This document shows, piece after piece, positions 396 through 42,876 of a stretch of 64,000 nt of DNA. A program made the translations under genes and the position numbers. Numbering within the stretch: position 1 is the stretch's first letter; each line of letters starts with the position of its first letter. The notes beneath the pieces are model-generated. The model saw only the letters and a program-made list of their open reading frames with translations, had not been told where the DNA came from and did no database searches. Origin of the DNA: an uncultured virus (IMG/VR IMGVR_UViG_3300025759_000075) (Duplodnaviria > Heunggongvirae > Uroviricota > Caudoviricetes); IMG/VR virus record IMGVR_UViG_3300025759_000075, positions 1 through 64,000 of that record; one strand, given 5' to 3'.

Positions 396-535
396 CCCTA
401 AATTATGCGCGCACCATCAAACTCGGCGTCATGGGTTCTTTCACTCTGCCTGTACGAATTGCGGGGCGCTGTTTGTTGTGGTTCGCAAAGATCAGGTTGA
501 CGCTGCTTTTAGGCGCGTATTGTTGGGGAAATGAG

Positions 536-1141
536 ATGCAGCCCTACGATCCAGTTTTGACAGTGATAGCCAACGAGGCCCGCGTGCGTACTCCGCATGT
601 CTTTCACCTGATACACGCCATGAAGGCCGGTAAGTTCCACCAGGCTGCGTTCGCGCAATTCACAGGGCTAGAGGAACGCCATGTCGAACGGATGCTAGAG
701 GCAATCGAAAAACACGGCGTGGAGATTAAGGCGAAGCGTCAGCAGACGACACGGGGGCACCGCCTGCCCGATGACTGGACCTTGCCACAGGAATGGCGCG
801 ACTGGGCAATCAAGGAACGCAAGTGGGAGCCTTCTGTGGTATTGGAAGAAGCCGCGAACTTTGCCGATTACTGGCATGGCGTATCCGGCACGAAAGGCAC
901 GAAACTGGACTGGCAGGCAACGTGGCGCAATTGGGTTCGCAATTCCCGGCGCGCCACTGGCGATTATGTGCCAGTAGAGCAGCGCCAGACAGCGGAGGGC
1001 TGGGTAGCGTATTGCGAGCAGCAGCTACAGCGGTGCAAGGAAAAGAACTATCGTCAGGGCATCGAGGAATGGACTGCGAAGCTGAACGCGGCGCGCGATA
1101 AGGTAGCTGCCAATGTTCTGCCATTCCGGCGCGAAGCCTAA
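536..1141 (+). CDS. Replication-associated protein with DnaT-like C-terminal domain
   Basis: RLPDDW..P, FADYW and KLDWQATWRNWVRN motifs typical of phage replication initiator C-termini; same domain type in 41027-41764. Confidence 0.6.
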   Translation: MQPYDPVLTVIANEARVRTPHVFHLIHAMKAGKFHQAAFAQFTGLEERHVERMLEAIEKHGVEIKAKRQQTTRGHRLPDDWTLPQEWRDWAIKERKWEPSVVLEEAANFADYWHGVSGTKGTKLDWQATWRNWVRNSRRATGDYVPVEQRQTAEGWVAYCEQQLQRCKEKNYRQGIEEWTAKLNAARDKVAANVLPFRREA

Positions 1142-1162
1142 ATTATTTTTTCTCCTGTCATT

Positions 1163-1197
1163 TTCCACTTTACAAGGTGGAATATCCACTACATAAA
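1163..1197 (+). promoter_or_regulatory. Sigma70-like promoter with palindromic operator
   Basis: TTTACA 1169-1174, 17-bp spacer, CATAAA; perfect GTGGA-ATA-TCCAC at 1177-1189. Confidence 0.6.
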
Positions 1198-1222
1198 GGG
1201 GACATAGACAAGGAGATACGAA

Positions 1223-1378: not shown

Positions 1379-1560
1379 TGGATAGGGAATTCTGGGCCGC
1401 TCCCATTGGTGACAACCGATTGAGCGGCCTGCTCTCCGAACTTTGGGAGGCAATCGAGGACTGCGACGATCCCGACCGCCTTTATCGATTTCATCGCCGC
1501 TTAACGATGGGAATTGTGAACCATGCCAAACGCCGAGAAAATGAACTGCGAGACGTGTAG
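1378..1560 (+). CDS. Hypothetical protein
   Basis: Translational coupling with upstream stop. Confidence 0.55.
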   Translation: MDREFWAAPIGDNRLSGLLSELWEAIEDCDDPDRLYRFHRRLTMGIVNHAKRRENELRDV

Positions 1561-1957
1561 GGGTTGGGGTGTCAACGATATGACAGGACAAACTTGTCAG
1601 CACTGCAATGGAAAAGGAACTATTGAGCAATCCTCAAAGGTTGCCGTTGCTTCGTCACACTGGCGCAGCGGCAAAAGCCTTGATAGCCTCGGAGCCGATG
1701 GGCAGGAGGTCGCAACTGTCAATAATTCCTTGACGGTTCAAGTGCAAGACCGCCTTGAAGGCTTGCGGGAGTGGGTAGACGATAACTGCCCCGAAGGCGT
1801 GGCTGGTATTCCCGACGATGTGCGCTGGCTCTTGTCCTATGCCGAATCTGTAGCAGCCGCAGATCTGAAACAACGCCTAAGCGATGCGGTCACGCTGCTT
1901 TATACGCATGGCGTGATTACCGAAAAGATGCGCGCCCATGCTCGGCGCAACCTGTAA
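1523..1957 (+). CDS. Hypothetical protein with N-terminal CxxCxGxG zinc finger
   Basis: CETCRGWG...CQHCNGKG. Confidence 0.55.
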   Translation: MPNAEKMNCETCRGWGVNDMTGQTCQHCNGKGTIEQSSKVAVASSHWRSGKSLDSLGADGQEVATVNNSLTVQVQDRLEGLREWVDDNCPEGVAGIPDDVRWLLSYAESVAAADLKQRLSDAVTLLYTHGVITEKMRAHARRNL

Positions 1958-1980
1958 GCAATCGTTACAAGTTGGAAACT

Positions 1981-2133
1981 ATGACCGATTGGCGTGAACA
2001 CCTAACCCCCGAAGAGGCCAAGCGCCTCGACGATATCGAAACGGAAAAGCTGACCCTGCGCCGTGAACATCGCCGCATCTTTGATCGTGCGCGCAAGCGA
2101 GCAGTAAGGGGCTTGCAATCCAAATCAGGATAG
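1981..2133 (+). CDS. Small basic protein (50 aa, MTDWREHLTPEE...RRIFDRARKR), paralog of 3296-3460
   Basis: Hand translation; clear similarity to 3296-3460. Confidence 0.7.
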   Translation: MTDWREHLTPEEAKRLDDIETEKLTLRREHRRIFDRARKRAVRGLQSKSG

Positions 2134-2145
2134 CGCATAAAGTTT

Positions 2146-2610
2146 GGGCCGGAACGCTGGTGGAAGCGCCCGGCCCGATTGCTTTGAACAAGCCCCTTAT
2201 AGGCCCCGCAATCGGACAATGCAAGGTTCGAATTGGCGCTTGGCCTAATCCACCCAAAAAGCTGCCTTGATCGACCACGTGCGCCGAGTTTTTCCGGCAA
2301 AGTGCAATCGGTCACAACGTGTTGAGTGCCACGTAAAAGCGGCTCCAGGGGTTCTTTTGCCTGTGACAAGGGATGCCTCGGGTGTTTACCCCCGCACCGC
2401 CGATGCGTGAACCGCGCTAAGGCATGGCCGAACCACGTAATGCCGCTCGCAAGAGTGAAATCGAGGACGACGCTCTAAACGGTCGAGACTATCGCTGGCC
2501 ACGATCCCGGAAGGGCAAAAGGCAGGTTCGGAATAAACGAGGCTAAAGGTTCAGGTGATCCGTCGCTATCGGTAAGGTAGCACCTCGACGGGGGTATGGG
2601 CTATGTCCAA
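2146..2610 (+). ncRNA. Candidate large structured non-coding RNA or origin element
   Basis: No credible ORF; upstream TTGCAA-17-CATAAA; many nested helices and GNRA tetraloops. Confidence 0.5.
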
Positions 2611-2622
2611 AGGAGACGCAGA

Positions 2623-2844
2623 ATGGAAAAGAGACCAGTGCCGGCCCCCGGATACACAAAGATAAGCGGGCATCGATCACCTCCGAAAAGCATGGGCACA
2701 AACCTGTACGTGCAAATACGCGCTGGCCACTGCGACCCTACGCCATGGCCTGTAGCAACCACGCGGTGGAAATGGCAGAGAGATGAAGCAGGCAACGTGA
2801 TCGAACACGCGGGCGATGTGGTCGCGATTCGCCGGGCGGAATAA
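2623..2844 (+). CDS. Hypothetical protein (homolog of 42869-43135)
   Basis: AAGGAG SD; PAPG...QIR.G...HAGD(V/I)VA shared with the phage B copy. Confidence 0.7.
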   Translation: MEKRPVPAPGYTKISGHRSPPKSMGTNLYVQIRAGHCDPTPWPVATTRWKWQRDEAGNVIEHAGDVVAIRRAE

Positions 2845-2880
2845 TTGTCCGCTTGACATAGGTGGAAATCCGCTTATTGT
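2836..2880 (+). promoter_or_regulatory. Sigma70-like promoter with TCCRC/GYGGA operator half-sites
   Basis: TTGACA 2853-2858, TATTGT 2875-2880; GTGGAAATCCGC in the spacer, similar to 1177-1189. Confidence 0.65.
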
Positions 2881-2901
2881 GGCGGACAAGGAGAAAAAAA
2901 T

Positions 2902-3303
2902 ATGTCTTGGAATCTTTGGGATAAGGAAGCTGAGATTTCCACCATGCTCGGATGCGTGTTCGATAAAATCGAAGGTGCGGAAGATGGCTCGGATGAAATC
3001 AAGTTCTACGAAAATGGCGTAGAGCGCTTCCGTATGTATCACACACAGGATTGCTGCGAGCATGTCAGGCTTGAGGATACCGCTGGCGACATAGCGGATC
3101 TGATTGGCTCACCTATCCTCGAGGCGGAATGTGTCACAAACAGCGAAGACGATCCGCCTGAATATGCCGATAGCTGGACGTGGACGTTCTACAAGCTTGG
3201 CACCATCAAGGGCCATGTGACCTTGCGCTGGCTAGGTGAGAGTAACGGATACTACAGCGAAAGCGTAGATCTTGCGGACATGCAGAAGATCGGCAATGCC
3301 TGA
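2902..3303 (+). CDS. Conserved acidic phage protein of unknown function
   Basis: YH.QDCCE and WTFYKL.T.KG...RW.GESNGYYSESV motifs; strong SD. Confidence 0.75.
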   Translation: MSWNLWDKEAEISTMLGCVFDKIEGAEDGSDEIKFYENGVERFRMYHTQDCCEHVRLEDTAGDIADLIGSPILEAECVTNSEDDPPEYADSWTWTFYKLGTIKGHVTLRWLGESNGYYSESVDLADMQKIGNA

Positions 3304-39460: not shown

Positions 39461-40180
39461 ATGTTAGCCATCGACTTTGCAGAGCCCGAACCATCGGAAG
39501 ACTTTGCGGACTATCGCGATTCCATGCGCCGTAGCAGCCAAACGTTCCTGACTGCGATCCAGACAGCGAAAGGGACACATTGGCTTTGTGGCCATCATCG
39601 CGGGCCGGATAACACGCATACCATAGCCGGAAAGACGCAATGCAAGAAGTGTCGCCGAAATAAAATTAACAGCGTTCTAAAGGTGATTGCGCAGCGCCAA
39701 GCTGTAGAGCGCGCCCTTGCTGTTCATGCGGCGGAGATGGAAGAACGTAGGATTGAAAGGCGTAAAGGCGAAAAGCAACGCGAGGCCGAGCGCTACAGGC
39801 GCGAGCGAGAGGAAAAGCGCCGGTTGCGCGATCAGGCCAACCGAAGGGCCAATGAAATACGTGCTGCTATTGTAGAGCGCACGATCATACACCCTGCGAA
39901 TGGCCGCATTCCTTTGCATGATTTAATCCAGGCTGTTGCCACTGCGTTCGGCATTGACCCTGAGGGTGTGCGCAGCAAGGCGAGGGGTAAGAATTTCCTA
40001 TATGCCCGATGCGTGCTTGTGAAAATCCTGCAAGAGCGAGGCGCGTCATATCCCGTCATTGGAAGGCTGTTAGGCGGTCGCGATCATAGCACCACGATCA
40101 ACGCCTATCACATGTTCCCGACATATTGCCGGAAAGACCCGCGTGTCGCCAGCACATACGAAAAGTATAAGGACCGCTAA
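39461..40180 (+). CDS. Protein with DnaA C-terminal-like HTH domain
   Basis: SYPVIGRLLGGRDHSTTI motif; GAGGA SD. Confidence 0.75.
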   Translation: MLAIDFAEPEPSEDFADYRDSMRRSSQTFLTAIQTAKGTHWLCGHHRGPDNTHTIAGKTQCKKCRRNKINSVLKVIAQRQAVERALAVHAAEMEERRIERRKGEKQREAERYRREREEKRRLRDQANRRANEIRAAIVERTIIHPANGRIPLHDLIQAVATAFGIDPEGVRSKARGKNFLYARCVLVKILQERGASYPVIGRLLGGRDHSTTINAYHMFPTYCRKDPRVASTYEKYKDR

Positions 40181-40521
40181 TGATCCTGCTACCTTACCCT
40201 GCGCCGCCCCTGTGGCCGAACAAGCGCGCCCATTGGGCCAAGAAAGCCCGCGAGACAAAGAAGCATCGTGCATGGGCGCATGGGGCCGCACTGGCGGCAA
40301 AGCCCTCTGCTGACGGGGAGCCTATTCCGGTGCGAATCACGCTTTACCCAAAACCCAAAGGGCCAGCCCCGGACAAAGACAACGTTGTTGCCAGCGCAAA
40401 GGCGTATCTCGATGGAATAGCTGAAGCGATGGGAATCAATGATCGTGCGTTCGCCTCGCCAATTGTTCGCATATCGGGAGAGCGACTTAGCCAGATGGGG
40501 ATTGAAATTGGAAAAGCCTAA
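40180..40521 (+). CDS. rusA: RusA-family resolvase (phage B copy)
   Basis: Near-identical to 57-395. Confidence 0.75.
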   Translation: MILLPYPAPPLWPNKRAHWAKKARETKKHRAWAHGAALAAKPSADGEPIPVRITLYPKPKGPAPDKDNVVASAKAYLDGIAEAMGINDRAFASPIVRISGERLSQMGIEIGKA

Positions 40522-40739
40522 AGCAGCACCGCCGTACTTTCCCTATCGCGACCACAGAACGATTGAGCAAATCGCGCGCGGTGAGCCACGGCCAGAGTTT
40601 ATGCGCTCGGTTGTGGTGCATCCACTAGGACGTACACTAGCTGACTTGCTATAGATATGAGCTTGTGGCAATAAGGCGGCGGGGAGCGTTAGCGCGCTCG
40701 ACCCGCCTATTTTCTAAACGCCTGAAACGGAGGCGATGA

Positions 40740-42276: not shown

Positions 42277-42876
42277 ATGGAAGCTGTAACGATAGGGCGG
42301 GCCACGCTGTATTGTGGGGACTGCCTCGACATTATCCCGGCGCTTGGAAAGGTGGACGCGGTGGTGACCGATCCGCCGTATCCAAACAACGCTGGCCATT
42401 TTGTCGAGGACATTCCCGCAGCCGTTCAAATGATGGCACAGGTTGAAGCGCCCCATTGGCTGGTCTTCTGGACGGAAATGGAGTTCCCGCCAGTTGTTCA
42501 GCCGATGGTTGCCGCTCACATTTGGCACCGGACCAACACGAACCGGCCCGACAATTACGAACCTATTTTTGAGTTCCACGAAGACGGCAAGAAACGCGCA
42601 AGCCGCGTCTTTCCTTATTGCGTCATCTTCCCCGGCCTGACCGGAATAGAGGCTACCGGGCACCCGACCGAAAAGAACGTTGATCTGATGGCCGCGCTAA
42701 TCAAGCGCACCACGGGCACCATTCTTGATCCGTTCCTTGGCAGTGGTGCGACGGGCGTGGCCGCAATGAAGCAGGGCCGCGACTTCATCGGGATTGAAAG
42801 GGAAGAGCGTTACTTCGACATCGCCTGCAAGCGTATTGAAGACGCCCAGAGGCAAGGAGATATGTTCATTGCCTAA
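42277..42876 (+). CDS. DNA amino-methyltransferase (N6-A/N4-C, beta-type order)
   Basis: GDC, TDPPY, HPTEK, LDPFLGSG.TG motifs. Confidence 0.9.
   Translation: MEAVTIGRATLYCGDCLDIIPALGKVDAVVTDPPYPNNAGHFVEDIPAAVQMMAQVEAPHWLVFWTEMEFPPVVQPMVAAHIWHRTNTNRPDNYEPIFEFHEDGKKRASRVFPYCVIFPGLTGIEATGHPTEKNVDLMAALIKRTTGTILDPFLGSGATGVAAMKQGRDFIGIEREERYFDIACKRIEDAQRQGDMFIA

What the first reader, a model, noticed from the sequence alone, without database searches (positions are those of the whole stretch)
2113..2610. Promoter-led ~450-nt structured non-coding element in the slot of the replication initiator
Seen: this is the longest stretch without a credible gene in an otherwise gene-dense genome. It starts just after TTGCAA-17-CATAAA (2113-2141). 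It contains GGGCCGG/CCGGCCC (2146-2176) and CCGATTGC/GCAATCGG (2175-2215, with a second GCAATCGG at 2304). Nested long-range pairs are CTTTTGCC(2354)/GGCAAAAG(2514), GGGAT(2370)/ATCCC(2504) and TGGCC(2425)/GGCCA(2497). There are GNRA-capped hairpins CGCTC-GCAA-GAGTG (2444-2457) and CCC-GGAA-GGG, three CCACGT copies, and a 3' domain CCGTCG/CGACGG enclosing GCTATC/GGTAGC and ending in a G-run. In phage B the equivalent slot (a similar hairpin at 40678-40707 through to the homolog of the next gene at 42869) carries the DUF1376 initiator with iteron-like repeats; no such initiator was recognised in phage A. Inference: a large phage ncRNA, possibly an RNA-primer origin analogous to ColE1 RNA II or a ribozyme-like RNA, exchanged as a module against a protein-initiator system.
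Basis: partly seen in the sequence, partly recalled or inferred. Interest (0 to 1): 0.8.

Follow-up and report, generated by a model that had tools for sequence, protein, structure and literature searches.

The report
Conserved large structured phage RNA
The gene-free stretch is a real, conserved, folded RNA region of about 510 bases that travels with a small upstream gene in a few aquatic phages; what it does is unknown, and it does not replace a replication protein.

Summary
Window 2134-2622 has no conserved reading frame. Homologues turned up late: four IMG/VR contigs, L059-L062, giving two to three sequence types 81-83% identical over window 1981-2602. They show that 2096-2603 is a conserved structured RNA on the + strand.

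- RNAalifold gives 155 pairs, 17 with compensatory changes.
- Against 270 column-shuffled alignments the consensus energy is -167.4 versus about -131 +/- 6.5, and compensatory pairs are 20 versus about 5.6, maximum 16.
- The minus strand looks like the null.
- A 168-nt core (2258-2425) is 94-95% identical, while peripheral helices are 59-77% identical and covary.
- No Rfam family matches.

Single-sequence folding is unremarkable: z = -1.0 overall, and only 2100-2205 stands out at z = -4.9.

The replication part of the reading fails. Phage A has an initiator-like gene (431-1141) in the slot that corresponds to phage B's DUF1376 gene. The RNA co-occurs with such a gene in L061/L062. It is linked to the 50-aa ORF 1981-2133, whose last codons form its first helix.

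Function is not shown. My best guess is a cis-acting intergenic RNA of the early operon. An earlier scan note on an identical copy called this an orphan spacer without relatives; the relatives found here contradict that.

The parts
1981..2133 (+). 50-aa ORF, Arg/Lys-rich at the C-terminus. It is the left part of the mobile module, and its last ~10 codons form the 5' strand of helix P1.
   Evidence: Homologues with 90% aa identity in L059-L062, 61-77% in L063-L067, and also in L041 and L045. Nucleotide identity is 82-88%. No Pfam or PHROG family.
2096..2241 (+). Domain 1 of the RNA, holding helices P1, P1a, P2, P3 and a small invariant hairpin.
   Evidence: RNAalifold; covariance model R1 finds it only in the window and L059-L062. 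2111-2269 has 1 difference in 159 nt on a marine contig whose flanks are far more diverged.
2104..2200 (+). P1 (2104-2117 with 2186-2200) enclosing P1a (2118-2121/2128-2131) and P2; a three-way junction that contains the ORF's stop codon at 2131-2133.
   Evidence: z = -4.93, 0 of 200 shuffles. P1 has 2 pairs changed on both sides plus G.U intermediates in L059.
2113..2141 (+). Promoter-like hexamers TTGCAA-17-CATAAA.
   Evidence: 8 of 12 matches, not called by the scan. Invariant in all 4 distinct sequences, but it overlaps the ORF end and P1/P1a. Function not shown.
2145..2187 (+). P2: a G+C-rich hairpin (2145-2152/2170-2177 and 2155-2158/2165-2168) followed by a U-rich tract; intrinsic-terminator-like. 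It starts 12 nt after the stop codon.
   Evidence: 4 pairs changed on both sides and 100% of cells paired. The tract after the stem is more U-rich in L059 than in the window. The terminator scan did not call it.
2175..2215 (+). P3: 2175-2182 pairs with 2208-2215. It crosses P1, so it is either a pseudoknot or an alternative fold.
   Evidence: 8 bp kept in all 4 distinct sequences, 3 pairs changed on both sides, each lineage different.
2242..2603 (+). Domain 2, closed by a long-range helix (2242-2251 with 2593-2603).
   Evidence: RNAalifold helix 7: 9 pairs, 1 changed on both sides, 3 on one side, 100% paired.
2258..2425 (+). Conserved core of domain 2.
   Evidence: 94-95% identity between the window and L059/L061, against 59-77% in neighbouring parts and 82-88% in the ORF. 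Two 1-nt indels (2340, 2366) exclude a reading frame.
2428..2531 (+). Variable sub-domain closed by helix 2428-2434/2525-2531. It holds the GCAA hairpin 2444-2457 and the GGAA hairpin 2506-2515.
   Evidence: Closing helix: 7 bp with 3 pairs changed on both sides. GCAA hairpin: 1. Predicted independently in each sequence.
2559..2592 (+). 3' two-step hairpin, followed by a G run.
   Evidence: Same shape in the window and in L059 with different stem letters and a different loop.
2623..2844 (+). Next gene (73 aa, ribosome-binding site at 2610-2617). It marks the right limit of the element but is not part of the module.
   Evidence: 21 relatives in the representative library, all starting at the equivalent Met. 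In L059/L061 and L060 other genes follow the RNA.
431..1141 (+). Initiator-like (primosomal / replication-initiation type) gene of phage A. Context only, not part of the element.
   Evidence: PHROG 3992 (5e-18) and PHROG 1408 (1e-12); similar to the C-terminal part of B's DUF1376 protein.

Best explanation
Window 2096-2603 is a conserved, + strand structured RNA region of about 510 nt, in two domains. It is carried together with the 50-aa ORF 1981-2133 as one roughly 620-nt mosaic module in a small group of aquatic phages.

Shown:
- It is non-coding.
- At least 12 helices are kept, 9 of them through compensatory changes.
- The pairing works only on the + strand.
- It has a highly conserved core flanked by variable, covarying helices.
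- Its first helix includes the ORF's last codons.
- No terminator-like site separates it from the next gene.
- The gene that follows differs between relatives.

Inferred:
- It is made as part of the early polycistronic transcript and acts in cis at the border between the replication cassette and the next cassette.
- Domain 1 holds a terminator-like hairpin (P2 plus a U-rich tract) starting 12 nt after the ORF's stop codon. It also holds two covarying helices that cannot both be nested (P1, P3) and that use the ORF end and the U tract.
- A ribosome finishing the ORF could therefore decide which fold forms, and so how much transcription or translation continues downstream.
- Domain 2 would be a folded platform for an unknown protein or ligand.

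The cis mechanism is a guess at roughly 40%. That this is a functional structured RNA I hold at roughly 80%.
For: Homologues: L059-L062 align with window 1981-2602 at 81-83% identity.

Structure:
- RNAalifold: 155 pairs, 17 compensatory.
- Pair counts: 17 pairs changed on both sides versus 4.4 +/- 1.9 in 500 shuffles (0 of 500 reach it) and 0-4 when partners are slid.
- Column-shuffled alignments refolded, 45 + 225 shuffles: energy -167.4 versus means of -128.9 and -131.2 (sd 6.5), minimum -150.6; compensatory pairs 20 versus means of 5.2 and 5.6, maximum 16.
- Each sequence folded on its own: 52 shared pairs, 11 compensatory.
- Hand-picked 12-helix structure: 75 pairs, 97.7% of cells paired, 17 changed on both sides versus 5.6 +/- 1.8.

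Strand: the minus-strand alifold energy is -135.4, inside the null. The + structure mirrored onto the minus strand pairs only 81% of cells, because 99 G.U cells are lost.

Non-coding: 1-nt indels at 2160, 2188, 2224, 2340, 2366 and 2439, and no shared open frame. No family for any of 19 stop-free fragments.

Conservation profile.

Module borders and varying neighbours.

P2's U tract and P1/P3.
Against: - Only 4 distinct sequences in three lineages. From about 2258 on, L059-L062 are nearly identical to each other, so domain 2 rests on essentially one pairwise comparison.
- The structures were partly derived from the same alignment on which the pairs were counted.
- Single-sequence folding of 2200-2622 is no better than shuffles (z = -0.30; sliding windows).
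- No expression data: no RNA run was listed.
- The terminator scan did not call P2. P3's 3' strand lies downstream of the U tract, so it cannot act before a termination decision.
- The high identity of the core could partly reflect recent recombination, since this region is mosaic.
- ORF homologues exist without the RNA in 7 loci: L041, L045/L067 (one contig), L063-L066. The ORF therefore does not need the RNA.
Confidence: 0.5

Rival explanations
1. A stable, trans-acting large non-coding RNA, of the same kind as the large ornate RNAs found in phages and prophages. It would be cut out of the operon transcript and might work with the Arg-rich 50-aa protein, for instance in host takeover or counter-defence.
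For: Size of about 510 nt, many helices, a conserved core and no ORF. It moves as a module with the small ORF whatever gene follows. Domains 1 and 2 recombine separately.
Against: No promoter or terminator of its own was found. No match to the GOLLD, ROOL or OLE models or to any other Rfam family. No complementary target in the window above chance. No expression data.
Confidence: 0.25
2. One reading: an RNA II-like primer or R-loop origin of replication.
For: Length similar to ColE1 RNA II (recalled, not from a call). It lies about 1 kb downstream of a primosomal-type gene in the window and in L061. G run at the 3' end. Weak promoter-like sites face each other across P2.
Against: An initiator-like protein gene is present in the window and in L061/L062, so the RNA does not replace one. 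An AT-rich stretch with DnaA-box-like words right after that gene (1142-1222), conserved in L061, is a better origin candidate. The antisense promoter is only 8 of 12. P1 covaries although it lies upstream of the proposed start.
Confidence: 0.07
3. Not one functional RNA: an intrinsic terminator and DNA-level sites at the start, followed by leftover spacer. The conservation would come from recent exchange and the compensatory changes from chance or from palindrome maintenance.
For: Only 2100-2205 folds better than shuffles. The region lies at a mosaic junction. 13 of 13 relatives of the 73-aa gene have no gap upstream. An earlier scan note reached this view.
Against: Long-range helices about 100 nt apart keep pairing through three double changes (2428-2434/2525-2531). 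0 of 270 shuffled alignments reach the native energy or covariation. The pairing is specific to the + strand.
Confidence: 0.12
4. Unrecognised small protein genes fill the gap.
For: The stop-free piece 2421-2543 has the best codon score of the gap fragments (0.014, just above the 95th percentile of the null) and a faint PHROG hit at E = 0.04.
Against: Its ATG is ATA in L059-L062 and a 1-nt indel follows at 2439. No homologue in the 5.8-billion-protein search. No shared frame anywhere in the gap.
Confidence: 0.02
5. A self-cleaving or otherwise catalytic RNA.
For: Conserved core with variable periphery.
Against: No match to any ribozyme family in Rfam. Nothing else points to it.
Confidence: 0.03

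Closest known systems
Large ornate bacterial and phage RNAs (GOLLD, ROOL, OLE; Rfam families; paper PMC12286853, of which I saw only the search listing and the start of the abstract)
   Same: More than 500 nt, many helices supported by covariation, no reading frame, carried by phages, function unknown.
   Different: No sequence or structure match to their Rfam models. It is embedded in an operon and overlaps the end of an ORF. No promoter or terminator of its own was seen. Only three lineages are known.
Intrinsic terminators and ribosome-coupled attenuators (trp-leader type; recalled knowledge)
   Same: A G+C-rich covarying hairpin with a U-rich tail, starting 12 nt after a small ORF's stop codon. 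Alternative helices involve the ORF end and the tail.
   Different: The competing strand lies downstream of the tail. About 400 further conserved structured nucleotides are not explained. The ORF is a conserved 50-aa protein, not a short leader peptide.
ColE1 RNA II primer (recalled knowledge)
   Same: Similar length, folded, near replication genes.
   Different: An initiator-like protein gene co-occurs with it. No antisense RNA gene, origin or hybrid was shown.
Candidate structured RNAs predicted from IMG/VR (Fremin et al. 2023, PMC10690425; abstract and outline read)
   Same: The same kind of object from the same data source: covarying intergenic regions of viral contigs.
   Different: I could not establish whether this element is among their 10,006 candidates. 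The six contig numbers are absent from the 6 supplement files that could be searched; 3 files could not be searched.

Membership tests
Any Rfam 15 family | Covariance-model match at or near the family's gathering score | tested here: not met
   0 matches at gathering score in the whole window. 0 at E <= 10 in 1800-3000 and in 2260-2630. One chance hairpin hit in 2090-2280: mir-3200, 17.4 bits against a gathering score of 79, E = 1.3.
tRNA / tmRNA | Cloverleaf or tmRNA detected by ARAGORN | tested here: not met
   0 genes in the window. The two GGTTCG words are strands of helices, not T loops.
Conserved structured RNA (generic) | Base pairs kept by compensatory changes more often than in controls | tested here: met
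   17 pairs versus 4.4 +/- 1.9 (0 of 500 shuffles) and 0-4 when slid. 20 versus a maximum of 16 in 270 refolded column shuffles. Only 4 distinct sequences.
Conserved structured RNA (generic) | No conserved reading frame | tested here: met
   Six 1-nt indels, and stops in every frame.
Conserved structured RNA (generic) | A transcript exists | not testable with these tools
   No RNA run was listed for the stretch.
ColE1-type RNA-primed origin | Replication without an element-encoded initiator protein | tested here: not met
   Initiator-like gene at 431-1141 in the window and at 424-1029 in L061.
ColE1-type RNA-primed origin | Antisense regulator RNA gene over the 5' part of the primer | tested here: inconclusive
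   Only an 8-of-12 promoter-like site on the minus strand at 2224-2196.
ColE1-type RNA-primed origin | Persistent RNA-DNA hybrid and RNase H-made primer end | not testable with these tools
   Needs experiments.
Intrinsic terminator (P2 only) | G+C-rich hairpin directly followed by a U tract | tested here: inconclusive
   The hairpin is strongly supported (4 compensatory pairs). The tail is U-rich but interrupted. The consensus scan did not call it.
Riboswitch / gene-specific leader | Always upstream of the same kind of gene | tested here: not met
   Three different downstream genes: the 73-aa family, a PHROG 4786 protein, and a PAPS-reductase-like protein.
GOLLD / ROOL / OLE class | Match to the family models | tested here: not met
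   No Rfam match.

The most novel reading that the evidence does not exclude
A new class of large (about 510 nt) phage RNA with a conserved core and a possible pseudoknot. It would be mobile together with a 50-aa Arg-rich protein as a two-part RNA-protein module and would act beyond simple cis control, for example as a ribonucleoprotein, a self-assembling RNA or a catalytic RNA used in host takeover.
Probability: 0.25. Interest if true: 0.8.

Novelty: new variant of a known kind. Interest (0 to 1): 0.6.

Why it matters
Bacterial and phage RNAs longer than 400-500 nt with complex conserved folds are few, and several have turned out to do unexpected things. This candidate comes from phages whose terminase is most like those of a Microcystis phage and Brucella phages. 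Homologues of its neighbouring Zn-finger gene include one in a Sphingomicrobium genome. That is a group from which no such RNA is filed in Rfam.

It has a clear architecture to test: two domains, a conserved core, crossing helices at the end of a small ORF, and a terminator-like hairpin.

It also shows that a folding-energy z-score near zero does not exclude a real structured RNA. The earlier scan note and my own first 90 calls pointed to 'orphan spacer' until relatives were found through the small ORF.

Tried and rejected
**Searches for relatives that found nothing**
- Relatives of the DUF7448 gene: 18 loci, of which 2 are copies of the same phage. None of the 16 others has the element in its locus, and 0 of 16 whole records at E <= 0.01.
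- The Zn-finger gene and the 82-aa ORF as single queries returned only copies of the same phage.
- The genome-contig scan gave 3 spurious loci.
- Three exact DNA patterns returned only records of the same phage.
- blastn of the region against phages found 4 records, all matching only 1677-1770. Plasmids gave nothing. tblastn of the Zn-finger protein against phages gave nothing.
- The profile of Zn-finger homologues added only L041, which has the ORF but no element.
- 13 relatives of the 73-aa gene have no gap upstream and no similarity to the element.

**Decayed-gene idea**
- tblastn of 1,723 and then 997 stop-free pieces from relatives against the gap gave only chance-level hits.
- 19 stop-free fragments of the gap have no Pfam or PHROG family.
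- The minus-strand 134-aa ORF and the 40-aa ORF have no homologues.
- The codon score could not separate small real genes from noise.

**Expression**
- No RNA holder was listed.

**Laid contigs of 4 runs**
- Three freshwater runs hold short identical pieces.
- One marine contig holds 2111-2269 with 1 difference, then continues for 18 nt unlike the window and ends.

**Other checks**
- nhmmer with the element profile over the window and all 67 loci held then, and covariance model R1 over 40 sources, found no further copies.
- Long-range pairings of the ORF body with the element (2015-2026/2235-2246 and 1982-1991/2305-2314) are perfect in the window, and raised z in flank-shuffle tests, but they are not cleanly kept in L059/L061 (read). 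I dropped them.
- An 11-nt tetraloop-receptor-like pair of words in the helix that closes domain 2 is not conserved. The motif itself is recalled.
- The GGTGGAA cluster: 6 of 11 window copies lie in 635-2943. The copy in the P2 loop is not kept in relatives.
- The ESM Atlas gave nothing for the ORF.
- Relatives of a virus record cannot be drawn in the genome search, so bacterial genomes, including the Sphingomicrobium genome that holds a Zn-finger homologue, were not searched.

Full report
**What the window is**

The window is the first 64 kb of a 75.9-kb IMG/VR virus record. It holds two related phage genomes or variants in tandem. Phage A positions 1-392 equal phage B positions 40124-40515 at 97.7% (RusA-like resolvase). 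The two then differ until A 3635 = B 45430, after which the structural genes are 68-81% identical. The large terminase is most like those of a Microcystis phage and Brucella phages. Homologues of a neighbouring gene include one in a Sphingomicrobium genome. All genes around the finding lie on the + strand.

**The observation**

The left neighbour is a 50-aa ORF (1981-2133). The right neighbour is a 73-aa gene that starts at ATG 2623 behind a good ribosome-binding site. This is a real family, with 21 relatives in the representative library, all starting at the same Met. Between them, 2134-2622 has stops in all frames.

**First phase: everything pointed to 'nothing special'**

- No Rfam family at E <= 10 and no tRNA or tmRNA.
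- Folding energy of 2134-2610: z = -1.01 on the + strand and -0.81 on the minus strand.
2200-2622: z = -0.30.
- Only 2100-2205 stood out: z = -4.93 as RNA, -3.9 as DNA, -4.4 on the other strand (sliding windows).
- Searches through the DUF7448 gene, the Zn-finger gene, the 73-aa gene, three exact DNA patterns, and the phage and plasmid collections found only copies of the same phage or relatives without the element.
- No sign of a decayed gene and no support for small ORFs.
- One hint went the other way. A marine contig aligned with 1500-1983 with many differences, but with 2111-2269 with 1 difference in 159 nt. It then ran on for 18 nt unlike the window and ended.

**The turn**

An alignment of the 50-aa ORF with its homologues in L041 and L045 retrieved eight further contigs (nine new loci) from IMG/VR. 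In four of them (L059-L062) the similarity does not stop at the ORF. It runs from window 1981 to 2602 at 81-83% identity. In the others (L063-L067, and also L041 and L045) the ORF is followed at once by other genes.

Homology starts exactly at the ORF's start codon and ends just before the next gene's ribosome-binding site. The flanking genes differ:
- In the window: a Zn-finger protein upstream and the 73-aa gene downstream.
- In L061/L062: two small ORFs upstream, with a PHROG 4786 protein and a PAPS-reductase-like protein downstream.
- In L060: a PAPS-reductase-like gene directly downstream.

So ORF plus gap is one mosaic module of about 620 nt.

**It is non-coding but constrained**

There are 1-nt indels at 2160, 2188, 2224, 2340, 2366 and 2439, and no open frame is shared. 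The ATG of the best small-ORF candidate (2424) is ATA in the relatives.

Identity of the window to L059/L061, by segment:

| Segment | Identity |
|---|---|
| ORF | 82-88% |
| 2134-2257 | 70-77% |
| 2258-2425 | 94-95% |
| 2426-2540 | 59% |
| 2541-2560 | 95% |
| 2561-2609 | 61% |

This is a conserved core with variable surroundings.

**It is a structured RNA on the + strand**

- RNAalifold on alignment A6 (4 distinct rows) gives 155 pairs, 17 with both sides changed and pairing kept.
- Counted with controls: 17 versus 4.4 +/- 1.9 in 500 within-pair shuffles (0 reach it), and 0-4 when partners are slid by 1-3 columns; 96.4% of cells are paired.
- This structure came from the same alignment, so I refolded column-shuffled alignments (45 + 225). 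Native energy is -167.4 versus means of -128.9 and -131.2 (sd 6.5), minimum -150.6. Compensatory pairs are 20 versus means of 5.2 and 5.6, maximum 16.
- Folding each sequence on its own, with no covariation term, gives 52 pairs with probability >= 0.3 in all three. Eleven of them are compensatory.
- Counting every helix of >= 4 bp kept in all four sequences, 7 have >= 2 compensatory pairs, against a mean of 1.1 and a maximum of 4 in 30 shuffles.
- A hand-picked set of 12 helices has 75 pairs, 97.7% of cells paired, and 17 pairs changed on both sides versus 5.6 +/- 1.8.
- The reverse strand folds no better than the null (-135.4). The + structure mirrored onto it pairs only 81% of cells, because 99 G.U cells would become A.C.

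**Anatomy**

Domain 1 (2096-2241):
- P1 (2104-2117 with 2186-2200) has 2 double changes plus G.U intermediates. Its 5' strand is formed by the ORF's last codons.
- P1a (2118-2121/2128-2131) abuts the stop codon.
- P2 (2145-2177) is a G+C-rich two-step hairpin with 4 double changes, followed by a U-rich tract that is more U-rich in L059.
- P3 (2175-2182 with 2208-2215) has 3 double changes and differs in each lineage.
- P3 crosses P1. The two form either a pseudoknot or alternative folds.

Domain 2 (2242-2603):
- It is closed by 2242-2251/2593-2603.
- It holds the near-invariant core 2258-2425, whose helices cannot be tested for lack of variation.
- It holds a variable sub-domain closed by 2428-2434/2525-2531 (3 double changes), with a GCAA hairpin at 2444-2457 (1 double change) and a GGAA/GAAA hairpin at 2506-2515.
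- It ends with a two-step 3' hairpin at 2559-2592 that has the same shape in the window and in L059 with different letters.

The two domains recombine separately. L059 and L061 differ in the ORF and in domain 1 but are 99-100% identical from 2258 on. The marine contig has the window's domain 1 and then diverges at about 2270.

**The replication part of the reading does not hold**

- Directly after RusA, where phage B has its DUF1376 protein, phage A has a 236-aa protein (431-1141). It matches PHROG 3992 'primosomal protein' and PHROG 1408 'replication initiation protein'. It shares the C-terminal domain with B's protein: 26% identity over 116 aa, E = 6e-6.
- This gene is followed by an AT-rich stretch with DnaA-box-like words (1142-1222; the consensus is recalled). 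The stretch is conserved after the homologous gene of L061.
- L061 carries the same order: resolvase, Rep-like gene, small genes, ORF plus RNA. The RNA therefore accompanies an initiator-like gene rather than replacing one.
- The proposed promoter is 8 of 12 and overlaps P1/P1a. Its hexamers are invariant, but the ORF end and the helices would explain that too.

**What it does is not shown**

No terminator-like site lies between the RNA and the next gene and no strong promoter lies inside it. It starts inside an ORF. It is therefore most simply part of the early polycistronic transcript. The terminator-like P2 begins 12 nt after the stop codon, and the crossing helices P1/P3 use the ORF end and the U tract. 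Together these suggest control coupled to translation of the ORF, with domain 2 as a platform for an unknown partner. I put this at about 40%.

A processed, trans-acting RNA, perhaps working with the Arg-rich ORF product, is the main rival at about 25%. A non-functional composite is at about 12%, the primer-origin idea at about 7%, and a ribozyme or hidden genes at a few per cent each.

**Limits**

- There are three lineages and four distinct sequences.
- Domain 2 rests on essentially one pairwise comparison.
- There are no expression data.

**Prior print**

I found no description of this element in three full-text searches. A 2023 screen of IMG/VR predicted 10,006 unnamed candidate structured RNAs (PMC10690425; abstract and outline read). 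The six contig numbers are absent from the 6 supplement files that could be searched, and 3 files could not be searched, so the element may be among those candidates.

Noticed in passing
window 1-33000 versus 33000-64000: The record holds two related phage genomes or variants one after the other. A 1-392 equals B 40124-40515 at 97.7%, and the structural genes are 68-81% identical. A 35.9-kb IMG/VR contig of the same phage ends at about window position 5. The join may be a co-assembly of two strains through the shared segment.
   Followed up: partly
window 2844-2945: The best sigma-70-like promoter of the first 6.5 kb (TTGACA-16-TATTGT, 2853-2880, 10 of 12) is framed by an 8-bp inverted repeat (2845-2852 / 2882-2889). 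The word GGTGGAAAT occurs three times (2765, 2861, and 2937 on the minus strand). This is probably an operator-controlled promoter of the DUF7448 gene.
   Followed up: partly
window 1142-1222; L061 1030-1115: An AT-rich intergenic stretch with DnaA-box-like words follows directly after the initiator-like gene and is conserved in L061. It is a candidate replication origin or regulatory site.
   Followed up: partly
window 1677-1770: About 92 nt inside the Zn-finger gene are 76-82% identical at the DNA level to Ralstonia phages YO102_1 and YO106_1 and to Acidovorax phage ACP17, although nothing else matches. tblastn with the whole protein found nothing.
   Followed up: no
window 1523-1957 and proteins P0001-P0030: The protein family has a constant C-terminal domain. 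Its N-terminus is variable, with or without a CxxC zinc ribbon and with inserted segments.
   Followed up: no
window 2623-2844; proteins P0033, P0036, P0042: The 73-aa protein's sequence also occurs as 9-13 matched stretches inside giant proteins of 1,256-5,118 aa.
   Followed up: no
L045 3691-3858 and 4152-4304: One relative carries two diverged copies of the 50-aa ORF family. The second copy is followed by a long hairpin with a T run.
   Followed up: no
window 40678-40715: The 'similar hairpin' in phage B is an ordinary G+C-rich hairpin followed by TATTTTCT, that is, a canonical terminator-like site after RusA. It has no sequence likeness to the element.
   Followed up: partly
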